From: Horticoccus luteus
GTDB taxonomy: Bacteria > Verrucomicrobiota > Verrucomicrobiia > Opitutales > Opitutaceae
Assembly: GCF_019464535.1 (NCBI RefSeq)
Contig: NZ_CP080507.1
Coordinates: 3,720,001-3,752,000 of the forward strand
Length of the DNA: 32,000 nucleotides
Direction of reading: 5' to 3'
Of the stretch, positions 8,159 to 26,180 are shown one piece after another (position 1 is the stretch's first letter; each line of letters opens with the position of its first letter). The notes under the pieces are model-generated. The model ran no database searches. It was not told the origin of the DNA and was given only the letters and a program-made list of their open reading frames with translations. A program made the translations under genes and the position numbers.

Positions 8159-8202
8159 TCGCCCGTGATTGAGCGCCCGAGCGACCTTTGGAGGCTGCGG
8201 CG

Positions 8203-9567: not shown

Positions 9568-9581
9568 GGCTCGCGGGGCAG

Positions 9582-9595
9582 TTAACTGTTTAACA
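9582..9595 (+). promoter_or_regulatory. Locus motif copy C: TTAACTGTTTAACA
   Basis: Plus strand, 15 nt after the fucP stop and 154 nt upstream of the second GH29 ATG (9750). It is embedded between CGGGG (9574-9578) and CCCCG (9599-9603). Confidence 0.5.
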
Positions 9596-9749
9596 TGACC
9601 CCGTGTTGATGGCGGTGGCGTCGCTGTTCTCCTCTTGGTCCCGTGACGGCTGATCTGCGATGTCTTCGTTGTCGCGCCCTTCCCCCCTCTGTTCACGGGT
9701 TCGTCGCAACTCCCTCGTCCCGTGCCCCTCGCAAAATTTCCCCTCTGCC

Positions 9750-11174: not shown

Positions 11175-11349
11175 AACGCGGGTCCGGCATTGGCCGGCGC
11201 GCCTGCTCGTGCGTTTTTCCGCGAGCCGCGAGGCCCAACTTGCCCCGCGTCGCGCGCAAGCACGTTTCGCGTTCACCTGCCGGGGCCGTTCGATTTTCCC
11301 ACGCGCGCGAGCGAACTTCCGTCTCTTAAACCCTGAATTGGATTTGCCC

Positions 11350-12957: not shown

Positions 12958-13005
12958 GTCCGTGCACCTGAGCTGAGCGCTTTCTCCAACGCGCGCCCGC
13001 TCACC

Positions 13006-14430
13006 TCATGGTTCACCCCAGACCGCCGGCACCTTAAAATCTCTGGAGATGGGCGCCTGCTTGGACGGCACGGCCGCCTTCGCATAAGCCGAAAGCTTCC
13101 GCTGCAGTTCCGCCACTTTCTCCGGATTCTTCGCCGCAAGATTCGTCGTCTCGTTCGGATCGCTGCGCAAATCGAACAACTCGATGACCGGGGCCGCCAA
13201 GGCCTGTGCTTTGAGATCCTTTCTGGCCTCCGTCACTGTGCCGCCTTCCTCGCCATCCTTGACCTGCCCGTTGACAACCAGCTTCCAATCTCCGATGCGC
13301 ACCGCGCCGCCCGTTGTCGTGATGTTCAGCAAAATGTCCTCGTGCGGCGACGCCGCGCACGCGGCGATGGTCGGCCACGCATCGCGACCGTCGAGCGGAT
13401 GATCCGTGCTTGGCGACTGCGCACCGGCCAGTTTCGCCAGCGTCGGAAACCAATCCACCATGTGCAGCACCGCTGGCACGACGGAACCGGCTTTGATCTT
13501 CCCGTCCCACACCACAACGGCCGGCACCCGCACGCCGCCTTCATACAGCGAGCCCTTGCCCCCGCGCAGCGGACCATTACTCGTCACGACTCCGGGCAGC
13601 GGCCCGCCATTGTCGGAGCAGAAAACGATCAACGTGTTTTCCCGCAGGCCCTTTTCGTCCAGGGTGCGCAGGATTTGGCCAATGCCCTCGTCCATGGCCG
13701 CCACCATGCCCGCGTAAATCCGGCGGCGCCCGGTCATGGTTTGGTAGGGCGCTTCATAGCTTTCCGGCACCTGCCATGGCCCGTGCACCGCATTGAAGGG
13801 CACGTAAAGAAAAAGCGGCCGGCCTGGATCGTGGGCGGCGATGATGCGGGAGGCTTCCTGCGCGATCAGCGTCGTCGAATACCCCTCCTCGTGCAGCGCA
13901 TGATCGTCCCGGTGCCAGTCGAGGCCGCCATCCCGCCGATGGGTGAAGTAATCGAAGTTTCCGTTATACAATCCGTATTGATGCTCAAAACCACGGTGCG
14001 TCGGGAGGTAGGCGGGTTTGACGAGGCCCAAGTGCCACTTACCGGTGATGGCGGTTTCATAGCCCACGTCGTGCAACGCCTGCGCCAGCGTGCGCTCATC
14101 GAGCGGCAATCCGTATTGCGCAAACGGCCGCACCACTCCGATCTGCAATCCGTAGCGGATCGGATAACGGCCCGTCAGAAGCGCGGCGCGGGTCGGCGAG
14201 CAGAGCGGCTGCACGTAAAACTGCTCGAGCCGCGCGCCTTCCTTCGCGAGCCGGTCAATGTTCGGGGTCCGGATTTCGCTCCCGTGGAATCCGACATCCC
14301 CCCACCCTTGATCGTCGGCGAGTAGGAAAAGAATGTTCGGGCGAGGCGCCGGCGCGGAAGGCGCTCCGCGCAACCCAGTAACGGCGACCAACACCAGAGC
14401 GACGGCAAAAACGGAGACGTTTGTTTTCAT
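13006..14430 (-). CDS. Sulfatase (S1, Cys-type), arylsulfatase B / N-acetylgalactosamine-4-sulfatase-like, exported
   Basis: NILFLLADDQGWGD is followed by the CSPTRAALLTGR motif. The signal peptide is MKTNVSVFAVALVLVAVTG. The gene lies 20 nt downstream of the preceding sulfatase gene. Confidence 0.9.
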   Translation of the reverse strand: MKTNVSVFAVALVLVAVTGLRGAPSAPAPRPNILFLLADDQGWGDVGFHGSEIRTPNIDRLAKEGARLEQFYVQPLCSPTRAALLTGRYPIRYGLQIGVVRPFAQYGLPLDERTLAQALHDVGYETAITGKWHLGLVKPAYLPTHRGFEHQYGLYNGNFDYFTHRRDGGLDWHRDDHALHEEGYSTTLIAQEASRIIAAHDPGRPLFLYVPFNAVHGPWQVPESYEAPYQTMTGRRRIYAGMVAAMDEGIGQILRTLDEKGLRENTLIVFCSDNGGPLPGVVTSNGPLRGGKGSLYEGGVRVPAVVVWDGKIKAGSVVPAVLHMVDWFPTLAKLAGAQSPSTDHPLDGRDAWPTIAACAASPHEDILLNITTTGGAVRIGDWKLVVNGQVKDGEEGGTVTEARKDLKAQALAAPVIELFDLRSDPNETTNLAAKNPEKVAELQRKLSAYAKAAVPSKQAPISRDFKVPAVWGEP

Positions 14431-14450
14431 CGGGGAAATTTAGTGCGCGT

Positions 14451-16217
14451 CTATTCCAAGAGCCGCGCTTCGACGTAAAACGCTCCGCGCGATTTGCCCG
14501 CTGCGTCGTCCGACAACCACGTCTGCATCTTGGCAGGACCGGCTCGCAGCTTCAGCGAAAGCGTCACGCTGGTCGCACCTGCGGGAACGACCACCGAGGC
14601 CTCCTGATCACCGACGATGATTCGCGCCCGATTGGCCTGAAGACGGAAATGCGCCTCCGCGGGTTCCTGCCGCAGCGTGAACGCATACCGTCCCGGTTTC
14701 GCTACCTCGATCATCCAGTAGCCGTTCACCCAACGCGCTTCCTTGATCTGCTCCTGGTTCCAGGGGACTTCTTTTTGGTCGGGTGCATGCCAATCCATGC
14801 AATCGATCATCGTAGGATTCTCTTGGGGCGCCCCGACTTCAATATAGGCGAAGCGTTTCAACGCCGGAGCAAGTGAAGCCCACCATGTCTCGTAACGCGC
14901 CCGCAACTTCGCCACCACGTCCGGATGGTCCGCGGCGACATTTTTCTCCTGCCCGGGATCGCGCGTAATGTCATAGAGTTCCCGGCCGTTGTTATAACGC
15001 CAACGGTCCGTCATCACTGCGCTGTGCTCCCATTTCGGGGGAATGTCTGCGCGTTGGCGATGGACGAACAACGTTCGCTCCGGCCACACCGCCGCCGGGT
15101 CTCGCAATAGGGCGGCCAGGCTGGTCCCGTCGAATTGCACCTGCGACGGCTTTGGCAACCGGCAAAGGTCGATCAACGTCGGCAGCAGGTCGATGTGCGC
15201 CGTCAGTTGGTTCACATCGCGCCCGCCTTCTACTCCGCCGCGCGGCCAGCGGATGAAGCACGGCGTGCGATGGCCGCCGTCGTATTCAGATCCCTTGACG
15301 CCTCGCATCCCCGCGTTGAAGCCCGGCCAGCTTCCCGGCGGCGGCGGTGGTGCGCCAAACCGATTGGCCCCGGCTACGCCCGCCGCAGTGCCATTGTCCG
15401 AGGCAAAGATCAGAATGGTGTTTTCCGCGAGGCCCAACTCTTGCAACCGCGCCCGCAGACGTCCCAGGTTTTCATCCATGTTCGCGATCATGCCGTAGAA
15501 ACTGTCCATCGGCCGCGGGACGCCTTTTTCCGTGTAAGGCTGGGTATAGCGTTCCGGCACGATGTAGGGAGCATGCGGAACATTGGTGGCGATGTAGGCG
15601 AAAAAGGGCCGATCCTTGTTGGCCTCGATAAACTGAAGCGCACGGGAGAAAAATACGTCCGTGCAGTAACCGTGACATTTTTCCAAGCGGCCGTTGTGCC
15701 GGTAAGTGTCGTCGATGTAGTCGTTGCCCCAGTGATCCGGCGTCTGACCAATCCCGCCGCCGCCAAACGTCACCGTTTCCTCAAAACCGCGATCCTCCGG
15801 CCGCAGCGGATAATTGTCGCCCAAATGCCATTTGCCGAACATCGCCGTGCGGTAGCCCGCCGACTTGAACACGTCGGCCATCGTCACCTCGTCGCGATAC
15901 ATCAGCGACCGCCCCATGATCGTGTGCCAGACGCCCGTGCGGGTGGAATAGCGCCCTGTCATCAAGGCCGCGCGGGTCGGCGCACAGGTTGGATCAACAT
16001 GGAAATTCGTCAGTCGCACACTCTCCGCGTGGAGCCGGTCCAAGTTCGGCGTGCGGATCATCCTGTTACCCAGGCACGCTACGTCTCCGTAGCCTTGGTC
16101 GTCGGTTAAAACAATAATGACATTGGGCGCCCGGTTCGTGTGCGCGGAAGATTCCGCCGCGCGCGCACCCCCAGGCAAACATGCCGCCAACAGTGCAATG
16201 AACAGAGCAATTTTCAT
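14451..16217 (-). CDS. Sulfatase (S1, Cys-type) with a C-terminal extra domain, exported
   Basis: NVIIVLTDDQGYGD is followed by the CAPTRAALMTGR motif. The ATG at 16217 gives the signal peptide MKIALFIALLAACLPGGARA. The C-terminal region of roughly 150 aa lies beyond the sulfatase core. Confidence 0.9.
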   Translation of the reverse strand: MKIALFIALLAACLPGGARAAESSAHTNRAPNVIIVLTDDQGYGDVACLGNRMIRTPNLDRLHAESVRLTNFHVDPTCAPTRAALMTGRYSTRTGVWHTIMGRSLMYRDEVTMADVFKSAGYRTAMFGKWHLGDNYPLRPEDRGFEETVTFGGGGIGQTPDHWGNDYIDDTYRHNGRLEKCHGYCTDVFFSRALQFIEANKDRPFFAYIATNVPHAPYIVPERYTQPYTEKGVPRPMDSFYGMIANMDENLGRLRARLQELGLAENTILIFASDNGTAAGVAGANRFGAPPPPPGSWPGFNAGMRGVKGSEYDGGHRTPCFIRWPRGGVEGGRDVNQLTAHIDLLPTLIDLCRLPKPSQVQFDGTSLAALLRDPAAVWPERTLFVHRQRADIPPKWEHSAVMTDRWRYNNGRELYDITRDPGQEKNVAADHPDVVAKLRARYETWWASLAPALKRFAYIEVGAPQENPTMIDCMDWHAPDQKEVPWNQEQIKEARWVNGYWMIEVAKPGRYAFTLRQEPAEAHFRLQANRARIIVGDQEASVVVPAGATSVTLSLKLRAGPAKMQTWLSDDAAGKSRGAFYVEARLLE

Positions 16218-16303
16218 GATGGGGATTGGCACGACCAAGGCCCCCGCAGCGAGGACCCGCGCGGGAGGTTTGCGACGATCCATTCAGCCGCAAATCCCGT
16301 GTC

Positions 16304-16365: not shown

Positions 16366-16640
16366 CACGCATGGGTTGAAACCCAACGCGCGGCAGCCGT
16401 TCTGATTTTCTCCGAGCGACGGCCATCACCGGCGCTCCCCCTATCTCGATACCCACATGCCCGGCCGGGCGAATTGAAATCCTCCTGTGGCAACACATGA
16501 CCCACGAAGACCCTGCCATCTTTCCGACCCACTTATCGCAGCCGTCCACCGCGGGCATTGCGGTTAATCATAAAAGACTGCACGCGGCATCCATCACGAT
16601 CAACGCAGCCACGCCTTCCGGAGCGTCCACTACCACGACC

Positions 16641-17543
16641 ATGTTGATCCCATCCCGCACCTCGTTCGCGTGCGCACTGCTATCCGGGCTCTGCGCTTGG
16701 CTCGCACTGCCCGCCACATTACGCGCCGCCGCTTGGCCGAGCGAAGTCGTGGGCGACGCACAGGTTTACAAACAGACCGAGGACGGACCGCAAAAGCTCT
16801 ATGTGCTCGAGCCCGACGACTGGAAGCCTACCGACCGGCGGCCGGCGATCGTGTTTTTCCACGGTGGCGGATGGGTGGGCGGACCGCTGTCGCAATTCAA
16901 CGACCAAAGCCGCTATTTTGCGTCGCGCGGGTTGGTATGCATCCAAGTGCAATACCGCGTGGTTCATCCGCACACGACGACTCCCCCCATCGTGTGCATT
17001 GAAGACGCCCGCTCGGCGATGCGTTGGGTTCGTCAACACGCTGGGGCACTCGGCGTCGATTCGCACTGCATTGCCGCGGCCGGCGCATCCGCCGGTGGCC
17101 ATCTTGCGGCGCACACTGCGCTTGTCGCCGGCGTCGATGACCCATCCGACGATCTGACGATTTCTCCGCGACCGGACGCGCTGCTTCTTTTCAATCCTGT
17201 GCTCGACAACGGCCCGGGAGAATATGGCGCCGAACGCGTGCGGGATCGCGTTGCCGAACTGTCGCCCGCCGCCAACGTCCGCCGCGGCGCGCCGCCCACG
17301 GTGCTGTTTCTGGGGACTACGGACCCTCTCGTGCCGGTGGCGACTCTGCAACGTTTTCGCACCGCGATGCTCGCTGCCGGCGCGCGCTGCGAATTGCATC
17401 TCTACGCCGGCCAGACTCACGGATTTTTCAACCGCTCGAAGTCCGTCAAGTATTACAAGCTCACCCTCCACGAATGCGCCGCGTTTCTCACGTCGCTCGG
17501 CTGGCTGCCGGTCGACGCTCCGAACCTTCCATCGACACCCTAA
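16641..17543 (+). CDS. Alpha/beta-hydrolase esterase (HGGG / GxSxG, family IV / HSL-like), exported; candidate glycan deacetylase
   Basis: The oxyanion motif is VFFHGGGWVGG and the nucleophile elbow is GASAGGH. A candidate Asp (GTTDPLVP) and His (GQTHGF) follow. The ATG at 16641 gives the signal peptide MLIPSRTSFACALLSGLCAWLALPATLRAAA. Confidence 0.8.
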   Translation: MLIPSRTSFACALLSGLCAWLALPATLRAAAWPSEVVGDAQVYKQTEDGPQKLYVLEPDDWKPTDRRPAIVFFHGGGWVGGPLSQFNDQSRYFASRGLVCIQVQYRVVHPHTTTPPIVCIEDARSAMRWVRQHAGALGVDSHCIAAAGASAGGHLAAHTALVAGVDDPSDDLTISPRPDALLLFNPVLDNGPGEYGAERVRDRVAELSPAANVRRGAPPTVLFLGTTDPLVPVATLQRFRTAMLAAGARCELHLYAGQTHGFFNRSKSVKYYKLTLHECAAFLTSLGWLPVDAPNLPSTP

Positions 17544-17634: not shown

Positions 17635-19647
17635 TCAGTCCCACTGCGTAAGCGCCTTCGCCGCGGCATCCTCCGACACGTGGTCCCGTGATGTCACTGA
17701 TGCGGTTCGCGCGCCCGGCTCCCAGTTTTTTCCGCCCCGCTCGTAGGCGCCAATATCTGGCGCCCGTCCCACGACCTTGCCGGTGATTCCGTCAATCACC
17801 GTCCCGGCATCGATCAAGGCTGAACCTGCCCGCGGCCGGAAATCGAAATGGGCCGGATCAGCGAGCTGGGACTGCGCGCCCGCGGCGAGTTCCGCGGACA
17901 CAAAGTTATGGTCAATGCCGTCCTGCAGCGGGAAAGGGGTGCCGACGCGATCGCACGTGAATGTGGTCACCGCATTGTTTTCCGCGCGCGTGTGCTGATT
18001 CTGCACCGCGAGGAGCGGCGTCGTGCTGCGGGCCCAAGGCTTGTGCGGTTCCGGTTCAGTGTGCAGACTAAGACCGTTGCCACCGAAGCGGCCCGTGCCG
18101 ATTCCGAACACCGTGTTGTAACTCACTTCGTTGAAATCGCCCTTTACGATAATGCCGTCACGATCGCAGTCCCACACCACGTTGTGATGCACGATCAACC
18201 CGCGCGTCTGGTCATCGCCGCGAATGCCCAGTCCGCCGGTCAATCCTCCCGCGAAGACGTACGGTCGACAGCCATGCACCCAATTATAGCGGACGACCGA
18301 GCCAGCCACGCGCGGTGAACCGCCTTGCACGAGGGCAACATCCTTGGCGACGCGCCCGCCGTCATGAATGTCGCAATACTCGATCACGTTGCCCGGCCCG
18401 GCATGGCGCACCAGTGTGTTGCCGCCGTCGAAAATCGTGCAGTGCCGTAACGTGTTGCCCCGGGTTTTGTCGTCGTCTGGATGGTCGATCGAAACGACCG
18501 CGTAGGCCAGTGATCCGTCCCAGCATGCGTCATGGATAACGCAATCCTCGATCAGATTCTGCGATCCCCGCACCAGTAGGCCGCTAGTGTTCGCTCCGCT
18601 GATCGTGCAATGCCGCAACACATTCCGATCTCCATCGATCGCGGTCCGGTCGTCCGCCTGTTCCGCGGCCGGCTCCGACATGTGGAACGCGTAGACAGGA
18701 TGACGCAGCTCGCAGTCCGCGATTTCATTGTCGTCACCGCGCACTTGGACGGTGCACCCGACAAAACGAAAGCCGCGCACAGTAATATGATGGGCACCGT
18801 CGATGCGCAGCCCAAGGGCGCGGCGCTTGACCGTCACCGGCAAACGATTCGGATCAGCGCCTCCGGGCGCCCAGAAATACAACCGCGACGCCGGAGCATC
18901 GAAAAACCATTCACCGGGCGCATCAAGCGCCTCCAGCTTGCCGACGAGGTAGAAGCGATCGTCTTCCCACTCGGTCGTCTTGTCGGCATAGTTCGTGATC
19001 GGAGTGAGATCCCGCGCGTAAGTGAACGCCCCGCGCGCCGTGTCGCAGGCTTGCACGCGGCGCGTCCACGTCAGGAATTGGTGCGCGACATTCAACACCG
19101 CGGTCGCGCCGGTCCAATCGACGTGCGTCTCGGCCAGCGCGGGGTCGATTACCAAACCGTAACGGCTGCCGAGCCCAGTGGAAGCCCACGTGTTGCGGTC
19201 CCAGCGGTTATGCGGATTAGCATTCGGCCAGCGGGCCCACGTCTGCTGCTCTTCGCCCACAAAAACCTGCCGCACAGGACCGGCGAGTTCGATCACATGG
19301 ATTCTTTCGCGATAGACTTGCCAAGCGCCTCTGAGCAGATCGCTCCCGTCGATTATCACGTCTCCGTCGCCCGCCGCGGCGTAGGTGATGGAGGCATTCG
19401 CAGTTCCGCTCCGCTGCAGATGCAGCGTTTCCCGATAGGTGCCTGCATGCACGAGACATTTATCGCCGGGCGCCAGCGTTTTCCCGGCGCGGGCCAACGT
19501 CCGCCACGGCATCTTGGCTGTGCCCGCCGCATCGTCCGCCCCGTGGGGACTGACATGAAATGTCGCGGCCGCAGCGGTCAGTGTCACGGCGCCCACCACG
19601 CCCCCGAGAATCGCGCGCAGGAATTTCGTAGGTGGTGATAAAGTCAT
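17635..19647 (-). CDS. Secreted right-handed parallel beta-helix (PbH1) repeat protein, family unassigned
   Basis: A signal peptide is followed by FHVSPHGADDAAGTAKMPWRTLARAGKTLAPGDKCLVHAGTYRE, a DUF1565/pectate-lyase-fold N-terminal cap. Many N-x-(I/V)-x-x-C-x-I-x-D style repeats follow. The gene starts 3 nt after the upstream beta-helix gene. Confidence 0.75.
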   Translation of the reverse strand: MTLSPPTKFLRAILGGVVGAVTLTAAAATFHVSPHGADDAAGTAKMPWRTLARAGKTLAPGDKCLVHAGTYRETLHLQRSGTANASITYAAAGDGDVIIDGSDLLRGAWQVYRERIHVIELAGPVRQVFVGEEQQTWARWPNANPHNRWDRNTWASTGLGSRYGLVIDPALAETHVDWTGATAVLNVAHQFLTWTRRVQACDTARGAFTYARDLTPITNYADKTTEWEDDRFYLVGKLEALDAPGEWFFDAPASRLYFWAPGGADPNRLPVTVKRRALGLRIDGAHHITVRGFRFVGCTVQVRGDDNEIADCELRHPVYAFHMSEPAAEQADDRTAIDGDRNVLRHCTISGANTSGLLVRGSQNLIEDCVIHDACWDGSLAYAVVSIDHPDDDKTRGNTLRHCTIFDGGNTLVRHAGPGNVIEYCDIHDGGRVAKDVALVQGGSPRVAGSVVRYNWVHGCRPYVFAGGLTGGLGIRGDDQTRGLIVHHNVVWDCDRDGIIVKGDFNEVSYNTVFGIGTGRFGGNGLSLHTEPEPHKPWARSTTPLLAVQNQHTRAENNAVTTFTCDRVGTPFPLQDGIDHNFVSAELAAGAQSQLADPAHFDFRPRAGSALIDAGTVIDGITGKVVGRAPDIGAYERGGKNWEPGARTASVTSRDHVSEDAAAKALTQWD

Positions 19648-19650
19648 AGG

Positions 19651-21918
19651 TTATCCCCGATCTTTGCTGGTGGCGGTTTGCTGCAGATCGATCGGCGACG
19701 TGCGTTTCAGTCGCTCCACCATCGGCTCCCGCAGCAGTCCGACATGGGTCGTGTCCACGGAGTGAATCCCGAGCGCCTCGGCCGGTGAATTCTCGCCAAA
19801 ACGAAAGTCGCCGTGCGCGGCGTCGCGAAACTGAGGATCGCCGATGCGACTCGCGCGATCATTACCCCACGCCCGCTGCATGCCCTGGATAAACGCTTCC
19901 GCGCCCACCCGGTCCGACGTGCTGAACAGATTGTGATCGGTCTTCGGCGGGACGATCGGCTTATGGTCGGGGTTGTAATTGCCGAGCATCGTATCACCGG
20001 GAGCGTTCCCGAAATAGCTGTTCACGGTATCAACTTCGTAGAATCGACTCTGGCCGGTGTAGGAAACGTAAACATTCCTTTCGACCCGAGAGTCGGGGCG
20101 GTCCGAGGTAATGCGCAGCCCCCCGTTCACCATGATATTGTTCCAAGTGGCATTGAAGTCCTTGATCACGATCCCGACGCCGAAAGTCACATTGTCGGTG
20201 ATCGTGCAATAGGATTGATCATCATCCGTGCGGATCGCGGCGGACCCGCCCATGTTGTAAATGACGTTCCGCTGGATGACGTTTCCCTTCCCTGCACTGG
20301 AGAGGTAGATCCCATTGCCGTCGCGCAACACCTGCATCGCATCGTGAATCTCGTTATCGCGCACCACGTTGTCACGGGTGTGCGCAAATGGCAGAATCGC
20401 CTCGGTCGTGCGCGGGTTGCCTATTTCGCGCCAGCGCATCAGGCGGAGGTTTTCGCGGAGGTTCGGGGGAAATTCCGGCCGCGGCACTTTCGGCGTCGCG
20501 ATGGCGAAATAGCGCGGCCGCACCCCGTCAAGGACCATCCCGTTATAGGGCAGATCATGCAGATAATTATGCGCCACGAGATTTCCTCCGCTTTGCCAGA
20601 GGAACACCGCGGGCGCGTGCCACCACAACTCACCCAAGTGATGAAATTCGTTGTCCACGATCTCATCGCCGCCGTTCACGTCTCGCGTGCCGGGCCCATA
20701 ACCGCACAGCAACACGCCGCCCGCGCCCAAATGGCGAAACGTGTTGCCACGTATCTCGAGGGCACGCGCGTAAAGGTCGGCCCGGATACCTTGCCCTCCC
20801 GCCGCCTCGAAGATGCAGTCGCGCACCGCACAATTTTCCGCCACCCGGAAGCGCAGGCAGGCATCGTCCTTGTCCCACATCGCCCAGTCGTGCTGCAGTC
20901 CGGCATCGTCGCCGCGCCAGGCATCGCGATCGGTGTGCGCAAAGGTCAGACCGACAAACTCGACCCCGCGCACCGGCTCGTCCGGAGCACCACCGCAGCC
21001 TTCCTCTCCAGCCACACGCACGAGCGTCGTGACGGCGGGAGCCACGATATTCGGTCCGGGCTCCGCACCGCGCGGCCAAAAATAAACGCGCCCTTCGGCG
21101 CGACGGAGCACCCACTCGCCCGGCGTATCCAGCGACTCGATTACGTTCTCCACCCAAAATTCACCCGTGGGCGTATACGTGGCCGGAAGCGTGGTGCGCG
21201 CCGTCAGCGCCGCTTCGTCCACCGATGCCAGTGAGAGGTAGTTCACCAGCCAGTTGTGGTTGGGACGGCTGAGAATCTCCACGTCGTCCAAATTCGGCCA
21301 CGATTTGATCGACCCCGCGGGAAACTCGATCACATCGCGCTTTTGCAGGCGGTCCGCCAATCCGCGGTGCTTGCCACGCGCGAGATAGCGCGCCGAACGC
21401 GCCCGCGGGAGACGCTCCATCTCGTCGTAAAGCGTGCGAAACGCCCGGCCGTGCAACGCCTCCGGCACGCTCGCCATCCATAATTTGCCGCGCGCCGCTT
21501 CCGCGGTGCCTGCGGGTTCCTCGCCGCTGGCCACGCGCGTCCAGCTCCGGATCGGCACGCCCCCGCTCACAATCGCGCGCCCGCCCGCAGACTCAAAACT
21601 TAGCACCCCGCCGGTTGCGGGCGTATCCTCGCGTCCGAGCACCAACGGCGCCGCGAGCCGGTAGATGCCATCGGCCAGCAGGATGTGGATACGCGCGCCC
21701 GCATCGGCGGCCCGCGCCGCCCGCGCCAACGCCATTGCGCGCGGCAACGTTGCCACGGGTGCCCCGGCTCCTCCCGACGCCCCGTCGTCGCCCCGCGGCG
21801 ACACATGTATCCGCGTGTCCTCTCGCGCGACCAGCGTCGCCGGCTCTCCTCCCCACAAAACGGGCGCGGTGAGCGCCGCCAAATGAACCCAACGAAAAAG
21901 CGAAGAGCGAAACATCAT
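19651..21918 (-). CDS. Secreted right-handed parallel beta-helix repeat protein, family unassigned
   Basis: The ATG at 21918 gives the signal peptide MMFRSSLFRWVHLAALTAPVLWG. Next comes IHVSPRGDDGASGG..ATLPRAMALA. Repeated beta-helix rungs follow (NCAVRDCIFE, IRGNTFRHLG, IVDNEFHHLG, NVVRDNEIHD, NVIQRNVIYN). Confidence 0.75.
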   Translation of the reverse strand: MMFRSSLFRWVHLAALTAPVLWGGEPATLVAREDTRIHVSPRGDDGASGGAGAPVATLPRAMALARAARAADAGARIHILLADGIYRLAAPLVLGREDTPATGGVLSFESAGGRAIVSGGVPIRSWTRVASGEEPAGTAEAARGKLWMASVPEALHGRAFRTLYDEMERLPRARSARYLARGKHRGLADRLQKRDVIEFPAGSIKSWPNLDDVEILSRPNHNWLVNYLSLASVDEAALTARTTLPATYTPTGEFWVENVIESLDTPGEWVLRRAEGRVYFWPRGAEPGPNIVAPAVTTLVRVAGEEGCGGAPDEPVRGVEFVGLTFAHTDRDAWRGDDAGLQHDWAMWDKDDACLRFRVAENCAVRDCIFEAAGGQGIRADLYARALEIRGNTFRHLGAGGVLLCGYGPGTRDVNGGDEIVDNEFHHLGELWWHAPAVFLWQSGGNLVAHNYLHDLPYNGMVLDGVRPRYFAIATPKVPRPEFPPNLRENLRLMRWREIGNPRTTEAILPFAHTRDNVVRDNEIHDAMQVLRDGNGIYLSSAGKGNVIQRNVIYNMGGSAAIRTDDDQSYCTITDNVTFGVGIVIKDFNATWNNIMVNGGLRITSDRPDSRVERNVYVSYTGQSRFYEVDTVNSYFGNAPGDTMLGNYNPDHKPIVPPKTDHNLFSTSDRVGAEAFIQGMQRAWGNDRASRIGDPQFRDAAHGDFRFGENSPAEALGIHSVDTTHVGLLREPMVERLKRTSPIDLQQTATSKDRG

Positions 21919-22001
21919 GGGGCAGGAAGGTGGGGATACGCAACGCGGGACGGGGCGGGACCAGCGCACCTTGCGTGCAGCGACGCCGCAACCAAGGCGC
22001 G

Positions 22002-22015
22002 ACTAAATCAGTTAA
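22002..22015 (-). promoter_or_regulatory. Locus motif copy F: TTAACTGATTTAGT
   Basis: Minus strand. 83 nt separate it from the beta-helix operon ATG at 21918. It lies 23 nt downstream of the LacI-family stop codon. Confidence 0.5.
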
Positions 22016-22031
22016 CGATTTTCCAAATCGT
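22015..22031. promoter_or_regulatory. Perfect inverted repeat ACGATTT-TCC-AAATCGT abutting motif copy F
   Basis: The 7-nt arms are perfectly complementary with a 3-nt spacer. It overlaps motif F by 1 nt and ends 7 nt from the LacI stop (22039-22041). The AT-rich stem is too weak and short-looped to be a good intrinsic terminator. Confidence 0.35.
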
Positions 22032-22038
22032 CCACTGG

Positions 22039-23103
22039 TCACCGCGGCTCGCGCGCTTTCTTTCGCGCGGCCGGCAAACCCCGCACCGTGCGGCCTTCCT
22101 GCCACGTGCCGTCCACGTGCGTGCCATGCGGCACGGCGTTGAAACCGCGCTGGTTGCTCTGGAGCAAGCTGTTCAATATCTCGACGGCAAATTCCCCCAT
22201 TTCGCTGCGATGCTGCTGGATCCCGCTCGCCTGCGGCACGTCGTCCGCGACATTCAAACTCGCGTAACCGATGTCCTGCGGGATGCGCAAACCTTCAGCG
22301 CGCACCGCTTCAAAAAAACCATCCGAGCGGCTGATGACCGCCTCCGGGCGTTCCCGCCGCAGCCAGCTTCGAATCTGTCCCACCGGATCCTCCGGCTGCA
22401 GCACGAGCGCCGATACCCGATTCGCCTCCAGCGTGCGCGACTGCAGATAAGCGTAACCCGCCTCCCATTGGTGCAGCGTGCGATCAGAGAGATCCGTCCA
22501 CACGATGATCCCGATCCGCGTGTAGTTGCGCGCGCGCAGTTGCTCCCACGCCAGCAAAATGCCCGCGAAGTGGTTCGGCACGATGTGATGAAACAACGGA
22601 TATTGCACTGGCCGCTCCAGCGCGACGACCGCGAAGTCCTTCCACTCCAGATCGAGCCGGTCGCGCGGATCTTCGAACGGCGCGAGAATCACGCCCCGGA
22701 TGCCGCGGTTGCGCAGCACCGCGCTGAACCGCCGCGCCGAACACCCCTGTTCGCGCGCCCAGAAGACCTGCAGCGAATACCCGAGCGACCGCGCGCGCAA
22801 CGTTACGCCTTCGATCGCCTGCTTCGCACTTGTCCGCGTCGTCCACGCATCCCGACTCGACCAGTTCGTCACGAGCGCGATCACCGAAAAATCCCGATGC
22901 ACCCGCAGGCGGCTGCGGTGCGCGGCCAGCGCCGACAACCCCGGATCCGGCGCGTAATTCAGCTCCCGCGCCATCGCCTTCACCTTCGCCGTCGTCGCCG
23001 CCGAAATCGAAGGATGGTTGCGCAACGCCAGCGACACCGCCGCCACGCTCAGGCCCAGCCGCCCGGCAACATCCTTCAAAGTGGTGCGTTTTTCCCAGCT
23101 CAC
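22039..23103 (-). CDS. LacI-family transcriptional regulator
   Basis: The N-terminal HTH is TTLKDVAGRLGLSVAAVSLALRNHPSISAATTAKVKAMARELNYAPD. A periplasmic-binding-protein-like effector domain follows. The start codon is a GTG at 23103. Confidence 0.9.
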   Translation of the reverse strand: MSWEKRTTLKDVAGRLGLSVAAVSLALRNHPSISAATTAKVKAMARELNYAPDPGLSALAAHRSRLRVHRDFSVIALVTNWSSRDAWTTRTSAKQAIEGVTLRARSLGYSLQVFWAREQGCSARRFSAVLRNRGIRGVILAPFEDPRDRLDLEWKDFAVVALERPVQYPLFHHIVPNHFAGILLAWEQLRARNYTRIGIIVWTDLSDRTLHQWEAGYAYLQSRTLEANRVSALVLQPEDPVGQIRSWLRRERPEAVISRSDGFFEAVRAEGLRIPQDIGYASLNVADDVPQASGIQQHRSEMGEFAVEILNSLLQSNQRGFNAVPHGTHVDGTWQEGRTVRGLPAARKKAREPR

Positions 23104-23166: not shown

Positions 23167-24570
23167 GTGGCTGCCCCTTCTCCCTTTCCTGCGCCGTCCT
23201 CCGGTCGGCCGCCGCCGAATGTCGTCTTCATCATCGCCGACGATCACCGGCACGATGCGCTCGGCGTGTGCGGGCATCCGGCGGTGCGCACGCCCCACTT
23301 GGACGCCTTGGCGCGCCGCGGCACCCATTTCGCGCGCACGTATCAAATGGGCGGGCTCATCGCCGCCGTGTGTTCGCCTGCCCGCGCCGCGCTCTTGACT
23401 GGCTGCAATGTCATCCGCGCCGACGCCGCTCCCTCTCCCTCCAGCCAGCCCGACCGCCTGGTGGCCCTCGCTCCCGATCTCACGACGCTCCCCGAGCGAT
23501 TTCGCGCCGCCGGTTACGAGACGTTCATCACCGGAAAATGGCACAACGACCCGGCGGCGCTTCAACGCTCGTTCACCGGCGGACGCCGCATCTTTTTCGG
23601 CGGCATGTCCGATCATCATCACGTGCCGCTGCGGGATTATTCGCCGACCGGCGACTACTCGGCACCGCCTTACTACGAAGCAGGCTTCTCCACCGAACTC
23701 TTTTGCCGCGCTGCGGAGGAGTTTATTCAGCAACCCCGCGGACCCTTCTTCCTCTATCTCGCACTCACGTCGCCCCACGATCCCCGCACCCCGCCCCCGG
23801 AGTTCGCCACGTTATATCCGCCGGCCGACATTCCGTTGCCGGCGAATTTTCTGCCTGACCATCCCTTTGATAACGGCGAAATTGCGATCCGCGACGAACG
23901 CCTCGCCGACCATCCACTGCAACCCGATGTCCTGCGGGCGCATCTCGCCGCCTACTATGGCATGATCAGCCATCACGACGCTCAACTCAGCCGCGTCTTC
24001 ACCGCTCTGCGCGAGGCTGGCTTGGAATCCAACACGCTGGTCGTTTACGTCTCCGATCACGGGTTGTCGCTCGGCAGCCACGGTTTGCTCGGCAAACAGA
24101 ATCTCTACGAAGAAAGCGTGCGCGTGCCGCTGCTGCTGGCGGGCCCCGGCGTGACTGCCGGGCGCACCGAAACAGCGCCGGTTTATTCCCTCGATCTCTT
24201 CTCGACGCTGCCCGCGCTGGCCGGCCTGCCCGCTGCGCCCGCTCACGACAGCCGACCGTTACCGCTCACGGCATCAACGCCTGACGGCCGCCGGCACTTC
24301 GTTTTCGCGCTCTATAAGGATTGTCAGCGCATGGTCAGCGATGGGCGGTGGAAACTCATCCGCTACTACGTGCACGGGCAGGAGCGGCGACAACTTTTCG
24401 ACTTGGACAACGACCCCGCGGAGCTCACCGATCTCTCCACCGTGGCCGCGCACCAACCCGTCATTCATCGCCTGCTCGCCCGCTTGAACGCCTGGCAGAG
24501 CTCCATCGGCGATCGCTGGCTGCCGCCCGCGCTTCTGCCGGGTGATGTCGACTCGGATCTCGTCGCATGA
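23167..24570 (+). CDS. Sulfatase (S1, Cys-type) without a signal peptide (predicted cytoplasmic)
   Basis: NVVFIIADDHRHD is followed by the CSPARAALLTG motif. It forms the C-terminal part of the artefactual 961-aa track ORF. The first plausible start after the divergent lacI gene is the GTG at 23167, giving (M)AAPSPFPAPSSGRPPPNVVF. No hydrophobic N-terminal segment exists in any possible extension. The stop overlaps the next gene's start in ATGA (24567-24570). Confidence 0.85.
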   Translation: MAAPSPFPAPSSGRPPPNVVFIIADDHRHDALGVCGHPAVRTPHLDALARRGTHFARTYQMGGLIAAVCSPARAALLTGCNVIRADAAPSPSSQPDRLVALAPDLTTLPERFRAAGYETFITGKWHNDPAALQRSFTGGRRIFFGGMSDHHHVPLRDYSPTGDYSAPPYYEAGFSTELFCRAAEEFIQQPRGPFFLYLALTSPHDPRTPPPEFATLYPPADIPLPANFLPDHPFDNGEIAIRDERLADHPLQPDVLRAHLAAYYGMISHHDAQLSRVFTALREAGLESNTLVVYVSDHGLSLGSHGLLGKQNLYEESVRVPLLLAGPGVTAGRTETAPVYSLDLFSTLPALAGLPAAPAHDSRPLPLTASTPDGRRHFVFALYKDCQRMVSDGRWKLIRYYVHGQERRQLFDLDNDPAELTDLSTVAAHQPVIHRLLARLNAWQSSIGDRWLPPALLPGDVDSDLVA

Positions 24571-26180
24571 CCCATCTGCGCGTCAGCCCCCTCGATCTGG
24601 GGATCGTGCTCGGATATTTCGTGTTTACCATCGCGCTCGGCGCTTGGTTTTCCCGTCGCAAGGTCGAGACCGGCGAAGGCTTCTTCCTCGCCGGCCGCTC
24701 CGCGCGCTGGCCCGTCATCGGCGCGTCGCTTTTTTCTGCGAACATCTCCAGTCAGCAATTCGTCGGCATGGCCGGCCTCGCCTACACCCTCGGACTCGTC
24801 GCCGGCGCGTTCCAATTGGTGGGCGCGGGCTGCTTCCTCCTCCTCGCGCTGTTTTTTGTGGACGTTTATCTGGGGCTGAAGCTCACCACCGCGCCGGAAT
24901 TCTTCGAGCGCCGCTACGGTTCCGGCACGCGGCTCTTCGTTGCGGGCATCAACGTCGTCATGATCCTCGCCGCCAACCTCACCGCGGCGCTCTATGCCGG
25001 CGCCACGGTGCTGACCACGTTGCTGGGCTGGACCGCTCCCGGACAATTTCTGATCGCGGTCGTGGCGATCGCGGGCGGCGCGGCGATCTGCGCCATTTTC
25101 GGCGGGTTGCGTTCGGTCATGTGGATCGACGTGTTTCAAGCCTCGGTGCTCGTCCTCGGCGGGCTCGTGACGCTCTTCGCCGCTCTCGCTCACGCCGGCG
25201 GCCTCGCCGCGCTGCTCCCCATGCACGATCCCGCGGGCCACTCCATGTGGTCGGTCGTGCAACCCTGGAACCATGCCTTCGGCTGGCTGCCGCTGCTGAC
25301 CGGCGCCGTGATCCTCGGCGTGCATGGACATTGCACCGATCATGACTACGTCCAACGCGCGCTCGCGGCCCGCAGTGTTTATCATTCGAAAATGGGCGCG
25401 GTATTCGCCGCGTTGCTCAAGATCCTGGCCCTCTTCATCATCGCTGCACCGGGTGTCATCGCGGCGCGGCTCATTCCCGGCCTCGCCCATCCGGATCAAG
25501 CCTACGCCGAAATGGTGGCGCATTTCGTTCCACCGGGACTGGTCGGCTTGGTGCTCGCCGGACTGCTCGCGGCGATTCTCGGCACGATGGCGGCCGGGCT
25601 GGCCGCGTCGTCCTCGATGCTCACCTATGATTTCGCGCTGAAAATATTCCCCCGGCTCGACGAACGCGCCCGCGTGCGCCTCGGCCGCGCGTTGATGGCG
25701 CTCATTCTCGTGGGTTGCAGCGCGGCGGCGCCGCTGATCGCCCGCTACTCCGGGTTATTCGCGTATCTCGTGAAACTCTGGTCGCTCCTCGCTCCGCCGG
25801 TTTTTGTTTGTGTTGTCTTCGGCATTTTTTCCCGGCGCGCCGACAATCGCGGCGCCATCGCCACGCTCATCGTCGGTTCCACCTTGGGGCTCGCCGCGTT
25901 TCTCGTGCTCGATTCCCCCGCCGCGGTTGCGAAGCTGCCTGTTTACCTGCGCAACCCGCTCAACATCGGCTTCACCATCACGCTCGTTTGCACCGCGGTG
26001 ATGCTCGCCGCCAGCCGCGGTCGATTCTCGCCGGCCGCGCGCCTCGCCTTCGCGCAACGCGCAGCGGTGCCCATGAGCGATCGCGAACAACGCCGCTACC
26101 GCCTCTTTCTCGCCAGCGTGCTCATCGTCCTCGTCGCCGTCATCGTGCTGTTCTCCCCGCTCGGTTTGCTGCGGGCGTGA
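24567..26180 (+). CDS. Sodium:solute symporter family (SSF, SGLT-like sugar transporter)
   Basis: GFFLAGRSARWPVIGASLFSANISSQQFVGMAGLAY is the hallmark SSF/SGLT N-terminal block. The 537-aa product is strongly hydrophobic with multiple TM segments. Confidence 0.9.
   Translation: MTHLRVSPLDLGIVLGYFVFTIALGAWFSRRKVETGEGFFLAGRSARWPVIGASLFSANISSQQFVGMAGLAYTLGLVAGAFQLVGAGCFLLLALFFVDVYLGLKLTTAPEFFERRYGSGTRLFVAGINVVMILAANLTAALYAGATVLTTLLGWTAPGQFLIAVVAIAGGAAICAIFGGLRSVMWIDVFQASVLVLGGLVTLFAALAHAGGLAALLPMHDPAGHSMWSVVQPWNHAFGWLPLLTGAVILGVHGHCTDHDYVQRALAARSVYHSKMGAVFAALLKILALFIIAAPGVIAARLIPGLAHPDQAYAEMVAHFVPPGLVGLVLAGLLAAILGTMAAGLAASSSMLTYDFALKIFPRLDERARVRLGRALMALILVGCSAAAPLIARYSGLFAYLVKLWSLLAPPVFVCVVFGIFSRRADNRGAIATLIVGSTLGLAAFLVLDSPAAVAKLPVYLRNPLNIGFTITLVCTAVMLAASRGRFSPAARLAFAQRAAVPMSDREQRRYRLFLASVLIVLVAVIVLFSPLGLLRA

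What the first reader, a model, noticed from the sequence alone, without database searches (positions are those of the whole stretch)
17635..21918. Two-gene operon of large secreted beta-helix proteins: candidates for the missing depolymerase
The two proteins are 755 aa (from the ATG at 21918) and 670 aa, and their genes are separated by only 3 nt. Both have signal peptides and a pectate-lyase-fold cap (xHVSPxGxDxxxG...PxxTLxxA), followed by many PbH1-type rungs. The operon has its own motif copy (F) and lies directly downstream of the LacI gene. The beta-helix fold is used by polysaccharide lyases and by several GH families, including GH28, GH82, GH110 and GH141. GH141 includes an alpha-L-fucosidase. 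In a locus otherwise lacking an endo-acting enzyme, these proteins are the best candidates for a new fucan- or sulfated-glycan-cleaving activity. Family membership cannot be decided by eye.
Basis: inference. Interest (0 to 1): 0.65.

Follow-up and report, generated by a model that had tools for sequence, protein, structure and literature searches.

The report
Two GH141-type beta-helix glycan hydrolases
The two adjacent genes encode secreted beta-helix enzymes of the GH141 type; the first belongs to a branch recently shown to cut sulfated fucans internally, so it is a new member of a known kind, and only the second, more divergent protein is still unplaced.

Summary
Genes A (19651-21918, 755 aa) and B (17635-19647, 670 aa) lie on the minus strand 3 nt apart. 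Both have hydrophobic N-termini, the HVSPxGxD…TL cap and a beta-helix, and they follow a LacI gene and a copy of a recurrent motif. The locus has two GH29 fucosidases, four sulfatases, an esterase, a TonB receptor and transporters, and no other endo-enzyme candidate.

A is not a new family. It is 37% identical over its full length to PDB 9RX2, a Mariniflexile fucanivorans protein encoded in a cluster with a 1007-aa gene, likely the FcnA fucanase. It is 36-37% identical to the Wenyingzhuangia sp. tandem homologues of Wf141_1/2. Its best fold match is GH141 BT_1002. Both GH141 catalytic Asp (D533, D565) and the W/N/R active-site residues of the fucanase branch are kept. GH141 endo-1,4-alpha-L-fucanases were published in December 2025. 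A is most likely such an enzyme.

B is a remote paralogue (profile-profile E 9e-42). It has the same fold and an invariant Asp pair (D436, D478) but lacks the QHxW motif. Its large uncharacterised family sits beside sulfatases and rarely beside fucosidases. Its substrate and CAZy family remain open. dbCAN and enzyme assays are needed.

The parts
19651..21918 (-). Gene A: 755-aa secreted beta-helix protein, GH141 fucanase-branch homologue (predicted endo-alpha-L-fucanase)
   Evidence: ORF. phmmer to 9RX2 gives E=1.4e-135 over the full length and to BT_1002 gives 4.5e-12. BLASTP identity to the 9RX2 protein is 37%. The AF2 model has pLDDT 88.7. Best Foldseek match is BT_1002 GH141, E=1e-28, TM 0.69.
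21847..21918 (-). A residues 1-24, MMFRSSLFRWVHLAALTAPVLWGG: probable Sec signal peptide
   Evidence: Hydrophobic window; residues 1-33 of the model are disordered or low pLDDT. Not tested with a signal-peptide predictor.
21733..21810 (-). A N-terminal cap motif IHVSPRGDD…ATLPRAM
   Evidence: It aligns to the cap of BT_1002 and 9RX2.
20872..20895 (-). A QHDWAMWD (aa 342-349); W345 matches the active-site Trp of Wf141_1/2/4
   Evidence: Q342, H343, W345 and D349 are invariant in 36/36 sequences. The same motif and spacing occur in the Wenyingzhuangia, Formosa and Mariniflexile homologues. Residue roles are from PMC12786026.
20314..20322 (-). A D533-G534-N535: D533 is the equivalent of BT_1002 catalytic D523; N535 matches the fucanase-branch Asn
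   Evidence: HMMER alignment to 5mqp. D533 and G534 are 36/36, N535 is 32/36.
20224..20232 (-). A R563-T564-D565: D565 is the equivalent of BT_1002 catalytic D564; R563 matches the fucanase-branch Arg (the xRxDx signature)
   Evidence: R563 and D565 are 36/36.
17635..19647 (-). Gene B: 670-aa secreted beta-helix protein, divergent GH141-like paralogue of unknown specificity
   Evidence: ORF. AF2 pLDDT 85.7. Best Foldseek match is BT_1002, E=1e-20, TM 0.61, followed by GH120 XylC. hhalign to the A family gives probability 100%, E=9e-42. The family has 977 50%-identity clusters at E<=1e-30.
19564..19647 (-). B residues 1-28, MTLSPPTKFLRAILGGVVGAVTLTAAAA: probable Sec signal peptide
   Evidence: N-terminal helix 5-21 with low pLDDT. 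Not tested with a predictor.
19483..19560 (-). B cap motif FHVSPHGADD…WRTLARAG
   Evidence: This is the region that gives the GH120 XylC, Pel9A and PL cap-only hits.
18340..18342 (-). B D436, aligned to A D533 and BT_1002 D523
   Evidence: hhalign; 36/36 invariant.
18202..18228 (-). B GIRGDDQTR (aa 474-482); R476 and D478 align to A R563 and D565 (BT_1002 D564)
   Evidence: hhalign; G474 to R482 are invariant.
22004..22015 (-). Locus motif copy TTAACTGATTTA, 86 nt upstream of the A start
   Evidence: 5 copies against 0.09 expected. Conserved at the same place in other Opitutaceae loci.
21986..21991 (-). TTGCGG box 12 nt downstream of the 12-nt motif (11 nt after the following G); also present upstream of A orthologues
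   Evidence: Seen in the window and in L001, L003, L004 and L005. No statistics were done.
22015..22031 (.). Perfect 7-3-7 palindrome ACGATTTTCCAAATCGT abutting the motif, between the LacI stop and gene A
   Evidence: It is the only exact copy in the window, and a function as an operator is not shown.
22039..23103 (-). LacI-family regulator directly upstream
   Evidence: Pfam LacI and Peripla_BP_3. LacI next to the A orthologue is conserved in L084 and L085.
16497..17543 (+). Abhydrolase_3/BD-FAE esterase, convergent with B; probable glycan deacetylase working with A
   Evidence: Pfam. It is adjacent to the A orthologue in L084 and L085. It is fused to A-family proteins in P0067 and P0074. Acetylation hinders the Wf141 enzymes.
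3646..16283 (.). Rest of the utilisation locus: GH29 (3646-5586 -), TonB receptor (5632-8025 -), MFS (8188-9567 +), GH29 (9660-11174 +), sulfatases (11110-12957 +, 13006-14430 -, 14451-16283 -)
   Evidence: Pfam.
23200..26180 (+). Fourth sulfatase (about 23200-24570) and SSF symporter (24567-26180)
   Evidence: Pfam. The same pair flanks LacI in L084 and L085.

Best explanation
The two genes encode two exported glycoside hydrolases of the GH141-type parallel beta-helix class. They sit in a LacI-controlled utilisation locus for a sulfated, acetylated, fucose-rich glycan in a bacterium whose nearest relatives are Opitutaceae.

Gene A belongs to the GH141 branch that contains the endo-fucanases Wf141_1, Wf141_2 and Wf141_4. 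It most likely cleaves alpha-L-fucosidic bonds inside the sulfated fucan backbone. D533 and D565 would be the catalytic acid/base and nucleophile pair. W345, N535 and R563 would line the site that accommodates sulfated fucose. The neighbouring esterase would remove acetyl groups that otherwise block cleavage. The oligosaccharides would then be taken up, with the TonB receptor and the MFS and SSF transporters as the likely route, and finished by the four sulfatases and two GH29 fucosidases.

Gene B is probably co-translated from the same transcript. It is a remote paralogue with the same fold and the same conserved Asp pair (D436, D478). It is most likely an active hydrolase that cuts a different linkage or sulfation context of the same polymer.

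Shown here: fold, homology, residue conservation, gene context and synteny. Inferred: substrate, endo mode, cellular location, co-transcription and the division of labour between A and B.
For: Evidence for A:
- phmmer gives E=1.4e-135 over the full length to 9RX2 and 4.5e-12 to GH141 BT_1002.
- 9RX2 is the 717-aa M. fucanivorans protein WP_132215995.1. It is encoded in the same gene cluster as a 1007-aa He_PIG/Por_Secre_tail protein, a GH29, two sulfatases and a second tandem copy.
- A is 36-37% identical to the two tandem Wenyingzhuangia sp. proteins. One of their genes carries the Wf141_1 cloning-primer site with 4 substitutions.
- The confident AF2 model has BT_1002 as its best Foldseek match: E=1e-28, TM 0.69 normalised to the target and 0.55 to the model.
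- BT_1002 catalytic D523 and D564 align to D533 and D565, both invariant in 36/36.
- The W/N/R residues that distinguish the fucanase branch are present with matching spacing.
- GH141 endo-fucanase activity has been shown experimentally (PMC12786026).

Context:
- 55 of 66 large A-family loci carry sulfatases and 36 of 66 carry GH29.
- The set LacI, A, esterase, sulfatases, GH29, TonB receptor and SSF is conserved in two other Opitutaceae genomes.
- Esterase fusions to A-family proteins exist.

Evidence for B:
- hhalign to the A family gives E=9e-42 and pairs D436 with D533 and D478 with D565. Both B residues are 36/36.
- Its best Foldseek match is BT_1002, E=1e-20.
- The 3-nt gap and a GGGGA upstream of the ATG suggest coupled expression.
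Against: - No enzyme assay has been done.
- A is only 36-38% identical to the flavobacterial homologues of the characterised enzymes. The Wf141 sequences themselves were not available here. GH141 members with the same fold have exo-fucosidase, xylanase or endo-fucanase activity, so the linkage, the sulfation preference and even endo versus exo action are not secured.
- The Pfam GH141_M hits are just below threshold: A 26.8 and B 22.9 bits against 27. The CAZy/dbCAN model could not be run.
- The printed branch signatures (xHQxWxxxD, and DG-24x-N) do not match A letter for letter. A and all the flavobacterial homologues read QHxW and DG-11x-N.
- The nearest relatives of A carry labels suggesting non-marine sources, such as a 'dung' MAG (habitats not verified). 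The natural substrate may therefore not be brown-algal fucoidan.
- B lacks the QHxW segment. Only 3 of 28 large B-family loci have GH29.
- A-B adjacency is seen in only a few relatives.
Confidence: 0.7

Rival explanations
1. A and/or B are exo-acting alpha-L-fucosidases like the GH141 founder BT_1002. They would trim terminal or branching fucose rather than depolymerise, and the locus would have no endo-enzyme at all.
For: BT_1002 is the best match among the PDB entries in the Foldseek library for both proteins. That library stops before the 9RX2 entry was released. Until late 2025 GH141 enzymes in fucoidan loci were generally assumed to be exo-fucosidases.
Against: A is far closer to the clade of 9RX2 and the Wf141_1/2 homologues (E=1e-135, 37% identity) than to BT_1002 (E=4.5e-12, 20-21% identity). 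A has the Trp, Asn and Arg that replace the Gln, Ala/Gly and His/Tyr of BT_1002. All four Wf141 enzymes lacked fucosidase activity. The locus already has two GH29 exo-fucosidases.
Confidence: 0.12
2. B, and less probably A, acts on a non-fucose part of the polymer or on a different sulfated glycan. It could be a xylosidase/xylanase-type or other debranching activity, as in GH120 XylC or GH141 Xyn141E.
For: The strongest single sequence hit of B is the N-terminal cap of GH120 xylosidase XylC (E=1e-10; profile 5e-30). B-family loci carry sulfatases (14/28) but rarely GH29 (3/28). Their neighbours include GH2, GH95, GH10, GH99, GH116 and GH172. GH141 does include a xylanase.
Against: The GH120 similarity is essentially confined to the cap: 86 of 107 bits. 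The fold match to BT_1002 is better than to XylC (TM 0.61 against 0.40). In this genome B is 3 nt from A inside a fucose/sulfate locus. In Oleiharenicola it sits in the same locus.
Confidence: 0.3
3. The proteins are polysaccharide lyases (pectate-lyase, PL6 or PL9-like) or non-catalytic beta-helix binding proteins or adhesins.
For: The N-terminal cap gives sub-threshold hits to Pel9A-like, chondroitinase B, PelN and rhamnogalacturonan lyase models. PL6 and PL9 structures appear lower in the Foldseek lists.
Against: The sequence-model PL hits cover only about 50-90 cap residues and are below the curated cut-offs. The Foldseek PL matches are weak (E 1e-4 to 1e-8, TM 0.2-0.4). The top fold matches are glycoside hydrolases. 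The GH141 Asp pair and many polar residues around it are invariant across 36 diverse homologues in each family, which argues for catalysis. No uronate-metabolising genes are in the window.
Confidence: 0.04

Closest known systems
GH141 endo-1,4-alpha-L-fucanases Wf141_1, Wf141_2 and Wf141_4 of Wenyingzhuangia fucanilytica (CUPP branch GH141*6; PMC12786026)
   Same: For A: same fold and the same catalytic Asp pair. The same W/N/R active-site residues occur at matching spacing (W-to-N 182-190 residues, N-to-R 28-32). A is 36-37% identical over about 690 aa to the Wenyingzhuangia sp., Formosa algae and Mariniflexile AS56 homologues. The gene neighbourhood is the same, with GH29, S1 sulfatases and an esterase.
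   Different: The host's nearest relatives are Opitutaceae with about 62% G+C, not marine Flavobacteriia. A has no tandem duplicate of its own kind and is instead paired with a distant paralogue. The N-to-R spacing is 4 residues shorter. Activity is untested.
PDB 9RX2, 'Parallel beta-helix repeat protein' of Mariniflexile fucanivorans (WP_132215995.1)
   Same: Closest solved structure to A: 37% identity and E=1.4e-135 over residues 49-730. It is encoded in the same cluster as a 1007-aa gene (likely FcnA), a GH29, sulfatases and a GDSL esterase.
   Different: No publication or function was found for the entry. It is absent from the Foldseek library, which stops at April 2026, so no structural superposition was possible.
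BT_1002 (PDB 5MQP), GH141 founding member, alpha-L-fucosidase acting on rhamnogalacturonan-II
   Same: Best fold match among the PDB entries in the Foldseek library for both A and B, with the cap, the inserted beta-sandwich and the beta-helix. The catalytic D523 and D564 are conserved in both.
   Different: Only 20-21% (A) and 15-16% (B) identity. It is exo-acting on pectin and has a pocket-type site, with Gln, Ala/Gly and His/Tyr where the fucanase branch has Trp, Asn and Arg.
GH120 beta-xylosidase XylC (PDB 3VST)
   Same: Second-best fold match for both proteins. Its cap is strongly similar to that of B.
   Different: The similarity is largely limited to the N-terminal cap. TM is 0.38-0.40. 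Correspondence with the GH120 catalytic residues (recalled from memory as Asp382 and Glu405) could not be established.

Membership tests
CAZy GH141 (protein A) | Right-handed parallel beta-helix catalytic domain with an N-terminal cap and an inserted beta-sandwich (GH141_M), resembling BT_1002 | tested here: met
   AF2 pLDDT 88.7. The Foldseek top four hits are BT_1002 chains, E=1e-28, TM 0.69. Pfam GH141_M scores 26.8 bits against a cut-off of 27, so it is borderline on that single model. Most A-family homologues carry a precomputed PF21231 hit.
CAZy GH141 (protein A) | The two catalytic aspartates (BT_1002 D523 and D564; Xyn141E D540 and D577) | tested here: met
   They align to D533 and D565. 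Both are invariant in 36/36 homologues. Residue identities come from PMC12786026 and PMC5593877.
CAZy GH141 (protein A) | Significant sequence similarity to CAZy-listed GH141 members | tested here: met
   BT_1002 E=4.5e-12. tblastn E=7e-130 and 5e-123 to the two tandem Wenyingzhuangia sp. genes homologous to Wf141_1/2. The Wf141_1 primer site was found in one of them.
CAZy GH141 (protein A) | Assignment by the dbCAN HMM, CUPP or CAZy curators | not testable with these tools
   No dbCAN or CUPP library was available.
GH141 fucanase branch (GH141*6; Wf141_1/2/4) | Signature residues: Trp in the (H/Q)xW…D motif, Asn after the catalytic DG, and Arg in xRxDx | tested here: met
   A has QHDWAMWD (W345), D533-G-N535 and R563-T-D565. 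The same holds in the Wenyingzhuangia, Formosa and Mariniflexile homologues, with W/N/R positions of 329-337, 511-520 and 543-552 against the published 332/515/547, 337/519/551 and 345/531/562. Caveat: the printed patterns (HQxW, DG-24x-N) are not reproduced literally.
GH141 fucanase branch (GH141*6; Wf141_1/2/4) | Endo-alpha-L-fucanase activity on sulfated fucans | not testable with these tools
   This needs expression and assay.
CAZy GH141 (protein B) | BT_1002-like fold | tested here: met
   AF2 pLDDT 85.7. The Foldseek top four hits are BT_1002 chains, E=1e-20, TM 0.61.
CAZy GH141 (protein B) | Catalytic Asp pair | tested here: met
   hhalign pairs D436 and D478 with A D533 and D565. Both are 36/36. 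This rests on a profile-profile alignment, not on a structural superposition.
CAZy GH141 (protein B) | Significant sequence similarity to known GH141 members, or the Pfam GH141_M domain | tested here: inconclusive
   As a single sequence: 9RX2 8e-6 and BT_1002 0.067. As a family profile: 9RX2 1e-22 and BT_1002 2.6e-14, but the GH120 XylC cap scores 5e-30. The Wf141_3-like protein aligns only over the N-terminal 300 aa, E=9e-14. GH141_M scores 22.9 bits, below the cut-off of 27. hhalign to the A family gives E=9e-42.
GH141 fucanase branch (protein B) | QHxWxxxD motif with the active-site Trp | tested here: not met
   The segment is a gap in B in the profile-profile alignment.
GH120 (protein B) | Similarity across the catalytic beta-helix, including the GH120 catalytic residues (recalled from memory as Asp382 and Glu405) | tested here: inconclusive
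   86 of 107 bits come from the cap. The catalytic region gives 14 bits. A fragment search of B residues 400-540 found nothing. TM to XylC is 0.40.
Polysaccharide lyases PL1, PL6 and PL9 (both proteins) | Match to the family model above threshold over the catalytic region | tested here: not met
   Chondroitinase_B 19.6 against 24, Pel9A-like 14.4 against 25.2, PelN 51 against 740. All hits cover cap residues only.

The most novel reading that the evidence does not exclude
Protein B represents a very large, entirely uncharacterised clade of GH141/GH120-like beta-helix hydrolases. The clade has 977 50%-identity clusters at E<=1e-30 and is spread over Planctomycetota, Verrucomicrobiota, Armatimonadota, Hydrogenedentes and Bryobacterales. 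On this reading it has a new specificity for sulfated glycans and merits its own CAZy family or subfamily. Here it would supply a second, non-redundant endo-activity in a fucan locus of what may be a non-marine Opitutaceae lineage, whose natural sulfated fucose-rich substrate is itself unknown.
Probability: 0.3. Interest if true: 0.6.

Novelty: new member of a known kind. Interest (0 to 1): 0.4.

Why it matters
Endo-acting enzymes are the bottleneck in the breakdown of sulfated fucans, which are polymers relevant to carbon sequestration and to the production of bioactive oligosaccharides.

Protein A extends the newly recognised GH141 fucanase branch into Opitutaceae whose record names suggest non-marine sources. 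It comes with a conserved partner set of LacI regulator, esterase, sulfatases and GH29, so a complete minimal pathway could be reconstituted from one compact 23-kb locus.

Protein B offers an entry point into a very large uncharacterised beta-helix family that sits next to sulfatases in many phyla. Assigning it an activity would annotate thousands of genes.

For A alone the result is confirmatory rather than surprising.

Tried and rejected
- A literature search for '9RX2' and for M. fucanivorans with GH141 found no paper describing the structure.
- The look-up of encoding contigs found no record for protein A, so the source organism was not identified. It is inferred to be close to Opitutaceae only from its nearest homologues.
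- The palindrome ACGATTTNNNAAATCGT is not the recurrent locus motif; it occurs once. Generic repeat finding showed nothing relevant.
- Sigma-70 promoter and intrinsic terminator scans over 17300-23300 were at background level.
- A PDB search with the catalytic fragment of B (aa 400-540), meant to align it to the GH120 catalytic residues, returned only chance hits.
- The listing of cluster members for the flavobacterial homologues did not return the Wf141 accession numbers; those clusters do not include W. fucanilytica.
- A search for the Wf141 terminal peptides encoded by the published primers gave only chance-level hits across the fetched loci. Exceptions were the Wf141_1 forward-primer site in L029 (4 substitutions) and, by eye, a Wf141_3-like protein in L043.
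- PDB searches with two of the sulfatases did not discriminate a fucan-specific subfamily. The best hits were S1_16 and S1_19 carrageenan sulfatases and GalNAc-4-sulfatase.
- The first attempt at a neighbour Pfam census exceeded the residue limit and was repeated on fewer genes.
- The 1008-aa and 417-aa minus-strand ORFs at 27380-31678 were rejected as shadow ORFs of Dus and GH78.

Full report
1. What is in the sequence

Two long minus-strand ORFs fill 17635-21918. Gene A is 19651-21918, 755 aa from the ATG. The frame stays open to a GTG at 21969, but the extra 17 residues add nothing that resembles a signal peptide. Gene B is 17635-19647, 670 aa. The A stop codon and the B ATG are 3 nt apart, and GGGGA lies 8 nt upstream of the B ATG.

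Both proteins start with a basic and then hydrophobic N-terminus. These N-termini are modelled with low confidence. It also finds the GH141 insertion domain just below threshold, at 26.8 and 22.9 bits against a cut-off of 27.

2. The neighbourhood

Pfam assigns the other real genes as follows:
- two GH29 alpha-L-fucosidases
- a TonB-dependent receptor
- an MFS and an SSF transporter
- four S1 sulfatases
- an Abhydrolase_3/BD-FAE esterase
- a LacI regulator directly upstream of A
- further out, an aminotransferase, Dus, a GH78 rhamnosidase, two Hsp20 genes and a DUF488 protein

The 1008-aa and 417-aa minus-strand ORFs at 27380-31678 have no family hits. They are shadows of the plus-strand Dus and GH78 genes.

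3. Protein A is a GH141 enzyme of the fucanase branch

A sequence search of the PDB gives a full-length match to 9RX2, 'Parallel beta-helix repeat protein' (E=1.4e-135). It also gives a match to the GH141 founder BT_1002 (E=4.5e-12). BLASTP identity to the 9RX2 protein is 37%.

9RX2 is identical to a 717-aa ORF of Mariniflexile fucanivorans, WP_132215995.1. In that genome the gene follows a 1007-aa He_PIG/cadherin/Por_Secre_tail protein, a sulfatase, a GH29, a GDSL esterase and another sulfatase, and it is followed by a second tandem copy. From my own knowledge, not tested here, the 1007-aa protein fits the GH107 endo-fucanase FcnA.

The AlphaFold model of A is confident (pLDDT 88.7, pTM 0.90). 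Its best structural matches are the four BT_1002 chains (E=1e-28, TM 0.69 normalised to the target). GH120 XylC comes next, followed by more distant beta-helix hydrolases and lyases. The Foldseek library predates 9RX2.

The catalytic residues of BT_1002 are D523 and D564. In the HMMER alignment they pair with A D533 (in RDGNGIY) and D565 (in IRTDDD). Both are invariant in 36 homologues spanning 36-71% identity.

4. Link to characterised enzymes

Rubtsov et al. (PMC12786026, December 2025) tested four GH141 proteins of Wenyingzhuangia fucanilytica. All four are endo-fucanases with no fucosidase activity, and Wf141_1 and Wf141_2 are endo-1,4-alpha-L-fucanases. In the branch of Wf141_1/2/4, a Trp, an Asn and an Arg replace the Gln, Ala/Gly and His/Tyr of BT_1002 and Xyn141E. 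The published positions are W332/N515/R547, W337/N519/R551 and W345/N531/R562.

A has W345 in QHDWAMWD, N535 after the catalytic D533-G534, and R563 two residues before D565. The homologues of A in Wenyingzhuangia sp., Formosa algae, Mariniflexile AS56 and M. fucanivorans carry the same three residues at 329-337, 511-520 and 543-552, which is the published spacing. Formosa algae and Mariniflexile AS56 are species the paper names as carrying this branch.

These homologues are 36-37% identical to A over about 690 residues. One of the two tandem Wenyingzhuangia sp. genes contains the published Wf141_1 forward-primer site with four substitutions.

There are caveats. The Wf141 sequences themselves were not available. 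The signature strings as printed (HQxW, and DG followed by 24 residues before N) are not reproduced literally by any of these proteins, which read QHxW and DG-11-N. dbCAN and CUPP could not be run.

5. Context of the A family

A scan of one genome per species found at least 547 relatives, and 80 loci were retrieved. Of the 66 loci of at least 12 kb, 55 carry a sulfatase and 36 a GH29 within 10 kb. The closest relatives (63-72% identity) are Opitutaceae or Verrucomicrobia MAGs, including one labelled 'dung' and an Oleiharenicola.

In two of these genomes the same gene set recurs: LacI, A, esterase, sulfatases, GH29, TonB receptor and SSF. Some A-family proteins are fused to the same type of esterase (P0067 and P0074). 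This fits the report that acetylation hinders cleavage by the Wf141 enzymes.

6. Protein B

B is much more divergent. As a single sequence it matches only the cap of GH120 XylC (1e-10), then 9RX2 (8e-6) and BT_1002 (0.067).

Its model is confident (pLDDT 85.7). The best fold match is again BT_1002 (E=1e-20, TM 0.61), ahead of XylC (TM 0.40).

Profile-profile comparison of the two families gives probability 100% and E=9e-42 over 542 columns. It pairs B D436 with A D533, and B GIRGD478 with A IRTD565. Both B residues and the whole GIRGDDQTR stretch are invariant. The QHxW segment is absent from B.

Against a Wf141_3-like protein found in Mariniflexile AS56, only the N-terminal 300 residues align, at 24% identity and E=9e-14.

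The B family is very large. It has 977 clusters at 50% identity with E<=1e-30 and 3458 with E<=1e-10, and many members are multidomain. All source names seen are generic.

Its context differs from that of A. In 28 large metagenomic loci, 14 have sulfatases but only 3 have GH29. Among the two genes on each side, sulfatase is the only recurrent family, at 13 of 84 genes. Individual genomes show GH10, GH32/43-like, GH99, GH116 or GH172 neighbours. B sits in the same locus as A in Oleiharenicola. It is on the same 6.6-kb contig as an A homologue in one JGI sample (P0008 and P0122). It is absent from the PE_dung23 locus.

7. Regulation

The motif TTAAnTGwTTwA occurs five times in the window against 0.09 expected. 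All copies are intergenic and oriented toward the downstream gene. The downstream genes are the TonB receptor, the MFS transporter, a GH29, gene A (22004-22015) and the fourth sulfatase. Two weaker copies lie between the third sulfatase and the esterase.

In five to six other Opitutaceae loci the motif is found at the same two places. One copy abuts the LacI start codon. The other lies just after the LacI stop, upstream of the A orthologue, and there it is followed by TTGCGG.

A perfect 7-3-7 palindrome (22015-22031) abuts the copy upstream of A. No intrinsic terminator or sigma-70 consensus stands out in the region. I infer that A and B have their own regulated promoter as part of one regulon. 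This was not tested.

8. Most likely mechanism

A is most likely an exported endo-alpha-L-fucanase that uses D533 and D565. It would open the backbone of a sulfated, acetylated, fucose-rich polymer after or alongside deacetylation by the esterase. The oligosaccharides would be imported and finished by the sulfatases and GH29 enzymes. Confidence is about 0.7 for 'GH141-type hydrolase acting on the locus polymer in endo mode'. Confidence is lower for the exact linkage.

B is most likely an active hydrolase of the same clan with a different linkage or sulfation requirement. Whether it cuts fucosidic bonds at all is open.

The rivals are an exo-fucosidase, a non-fucose debranching enzyme (mainly for B), and a lyase or adhesin. 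They are weighed in their own section of this report.

9. Novelty and verdict

These are the depolymerase candidates, GH141 was a family to test, and the eye could not decide membership. The claim of a new activity does not hold for A, which is a new member of a branch that now has biochemical data and a deposited structure. B is the part worth following, as a member of a very large uncharacterised clade associated with sulfatases. The record names of A's closest relatives suggest that the lineage, and hence the natural substrate, may be non-marine. Overall interest is 0.4.

Noticed in passing
window 8109-8120 (-), 8145-8156 (+), 9582-9593 (+), 22004-22015 (-), 23104-23115 (+); weaker copies at 16306-16317 (-) and 16352-16363 (+): An oriented 12-nt motif, TTAAnTGwTTwA, marks the upstream region of most transcription units of the locus (5 copies against 0.09 expected). 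It is conserved at orthologous positions flanking the LacI gene in other Opitutaceae genomes (L001/L085, L002, L003, L004, L005/L084, L086). It is not palindromic, so it may be a promoter element rather than a classical LacI operator.
   Followed up: partly
window 23101-23115: One motif copy directly abuts the annotated GTG start of LacI (23103), leaving no room for a ribosome-binding site. Either LacI starts further downstream, or its start overlaps the divergent sulfatase control region. About 40 nt downstream of the motif end, a conserved GTCAACG follows in the window and in five related loci.
   Followed up: no
window 22015-22031: A perfect 7-3-7 palindrome, ACGATTTTCCAAATCGT, lies between the LacI stop and gene A, abutting the motif. 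It is unique in the window. A second palindrome, GTGCGACTTTTCGCAC, follows the motif copy at 23104.
   Followed up: partly
P0067 (1002 aa) and P0074 (986 aa), homologues of A: These are natural fusions of an A-family beta-helix domain with a COesterase/Abhydrolase_3/BD-FAE esterase. This is the same esterase type as window gene 16497-17543 and suggests a functional coupling of deacetylation and cleavage.
   Followed up: no
window 27380-30406 (-) and 30425-31678 (-): These very long ORFs (1008 and 417 aa) have no family hits. They are shadow ORFs opposite the real plus-strand genes Dus (27977-29089) and a GH78-type alpha-L-rhamnosidase (29093-31495).
   Followed up: yes
window 2512-2904 (-) and 2937-3383 (-): Two tandem Hsp20/alpha-crystallin genes lie in a lower-G+C stretch just outside the glycan locus. 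A DUF488 gene is at 1714-2505 (+).
   Followed up: no
L043:5026-7395 (Mariniflexile sp. AS56) and L029:61-1878 (Wenyingzhuangia sp.): A third GH141-type protein occurs in the flavobacterial fucoidan clusters, with a C-terminal PDZ (DegP-like) domain. Its N-terminus (VDIYVSTEG) and an internal GVSETLKN resemble the ends of the published Wf141_3 construct, so it is probably the Wf141_3 orthologue.
   Followed up: partly
L001-L005, L084, L085 (closest relatives of A): The nearest homologues (63-72% identity) come from Opitutaceae or Verrucomicrobia MAGs whose labels suggest non-marine sources (for example 'dung' and Oleiharenicola). This raises the question of which sulfated fucose-rich polymer such bacteria meet outside the sea. 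The habitat of the window's own genome (a 4.32-Mb contig) was not determined.
   Followed up: no
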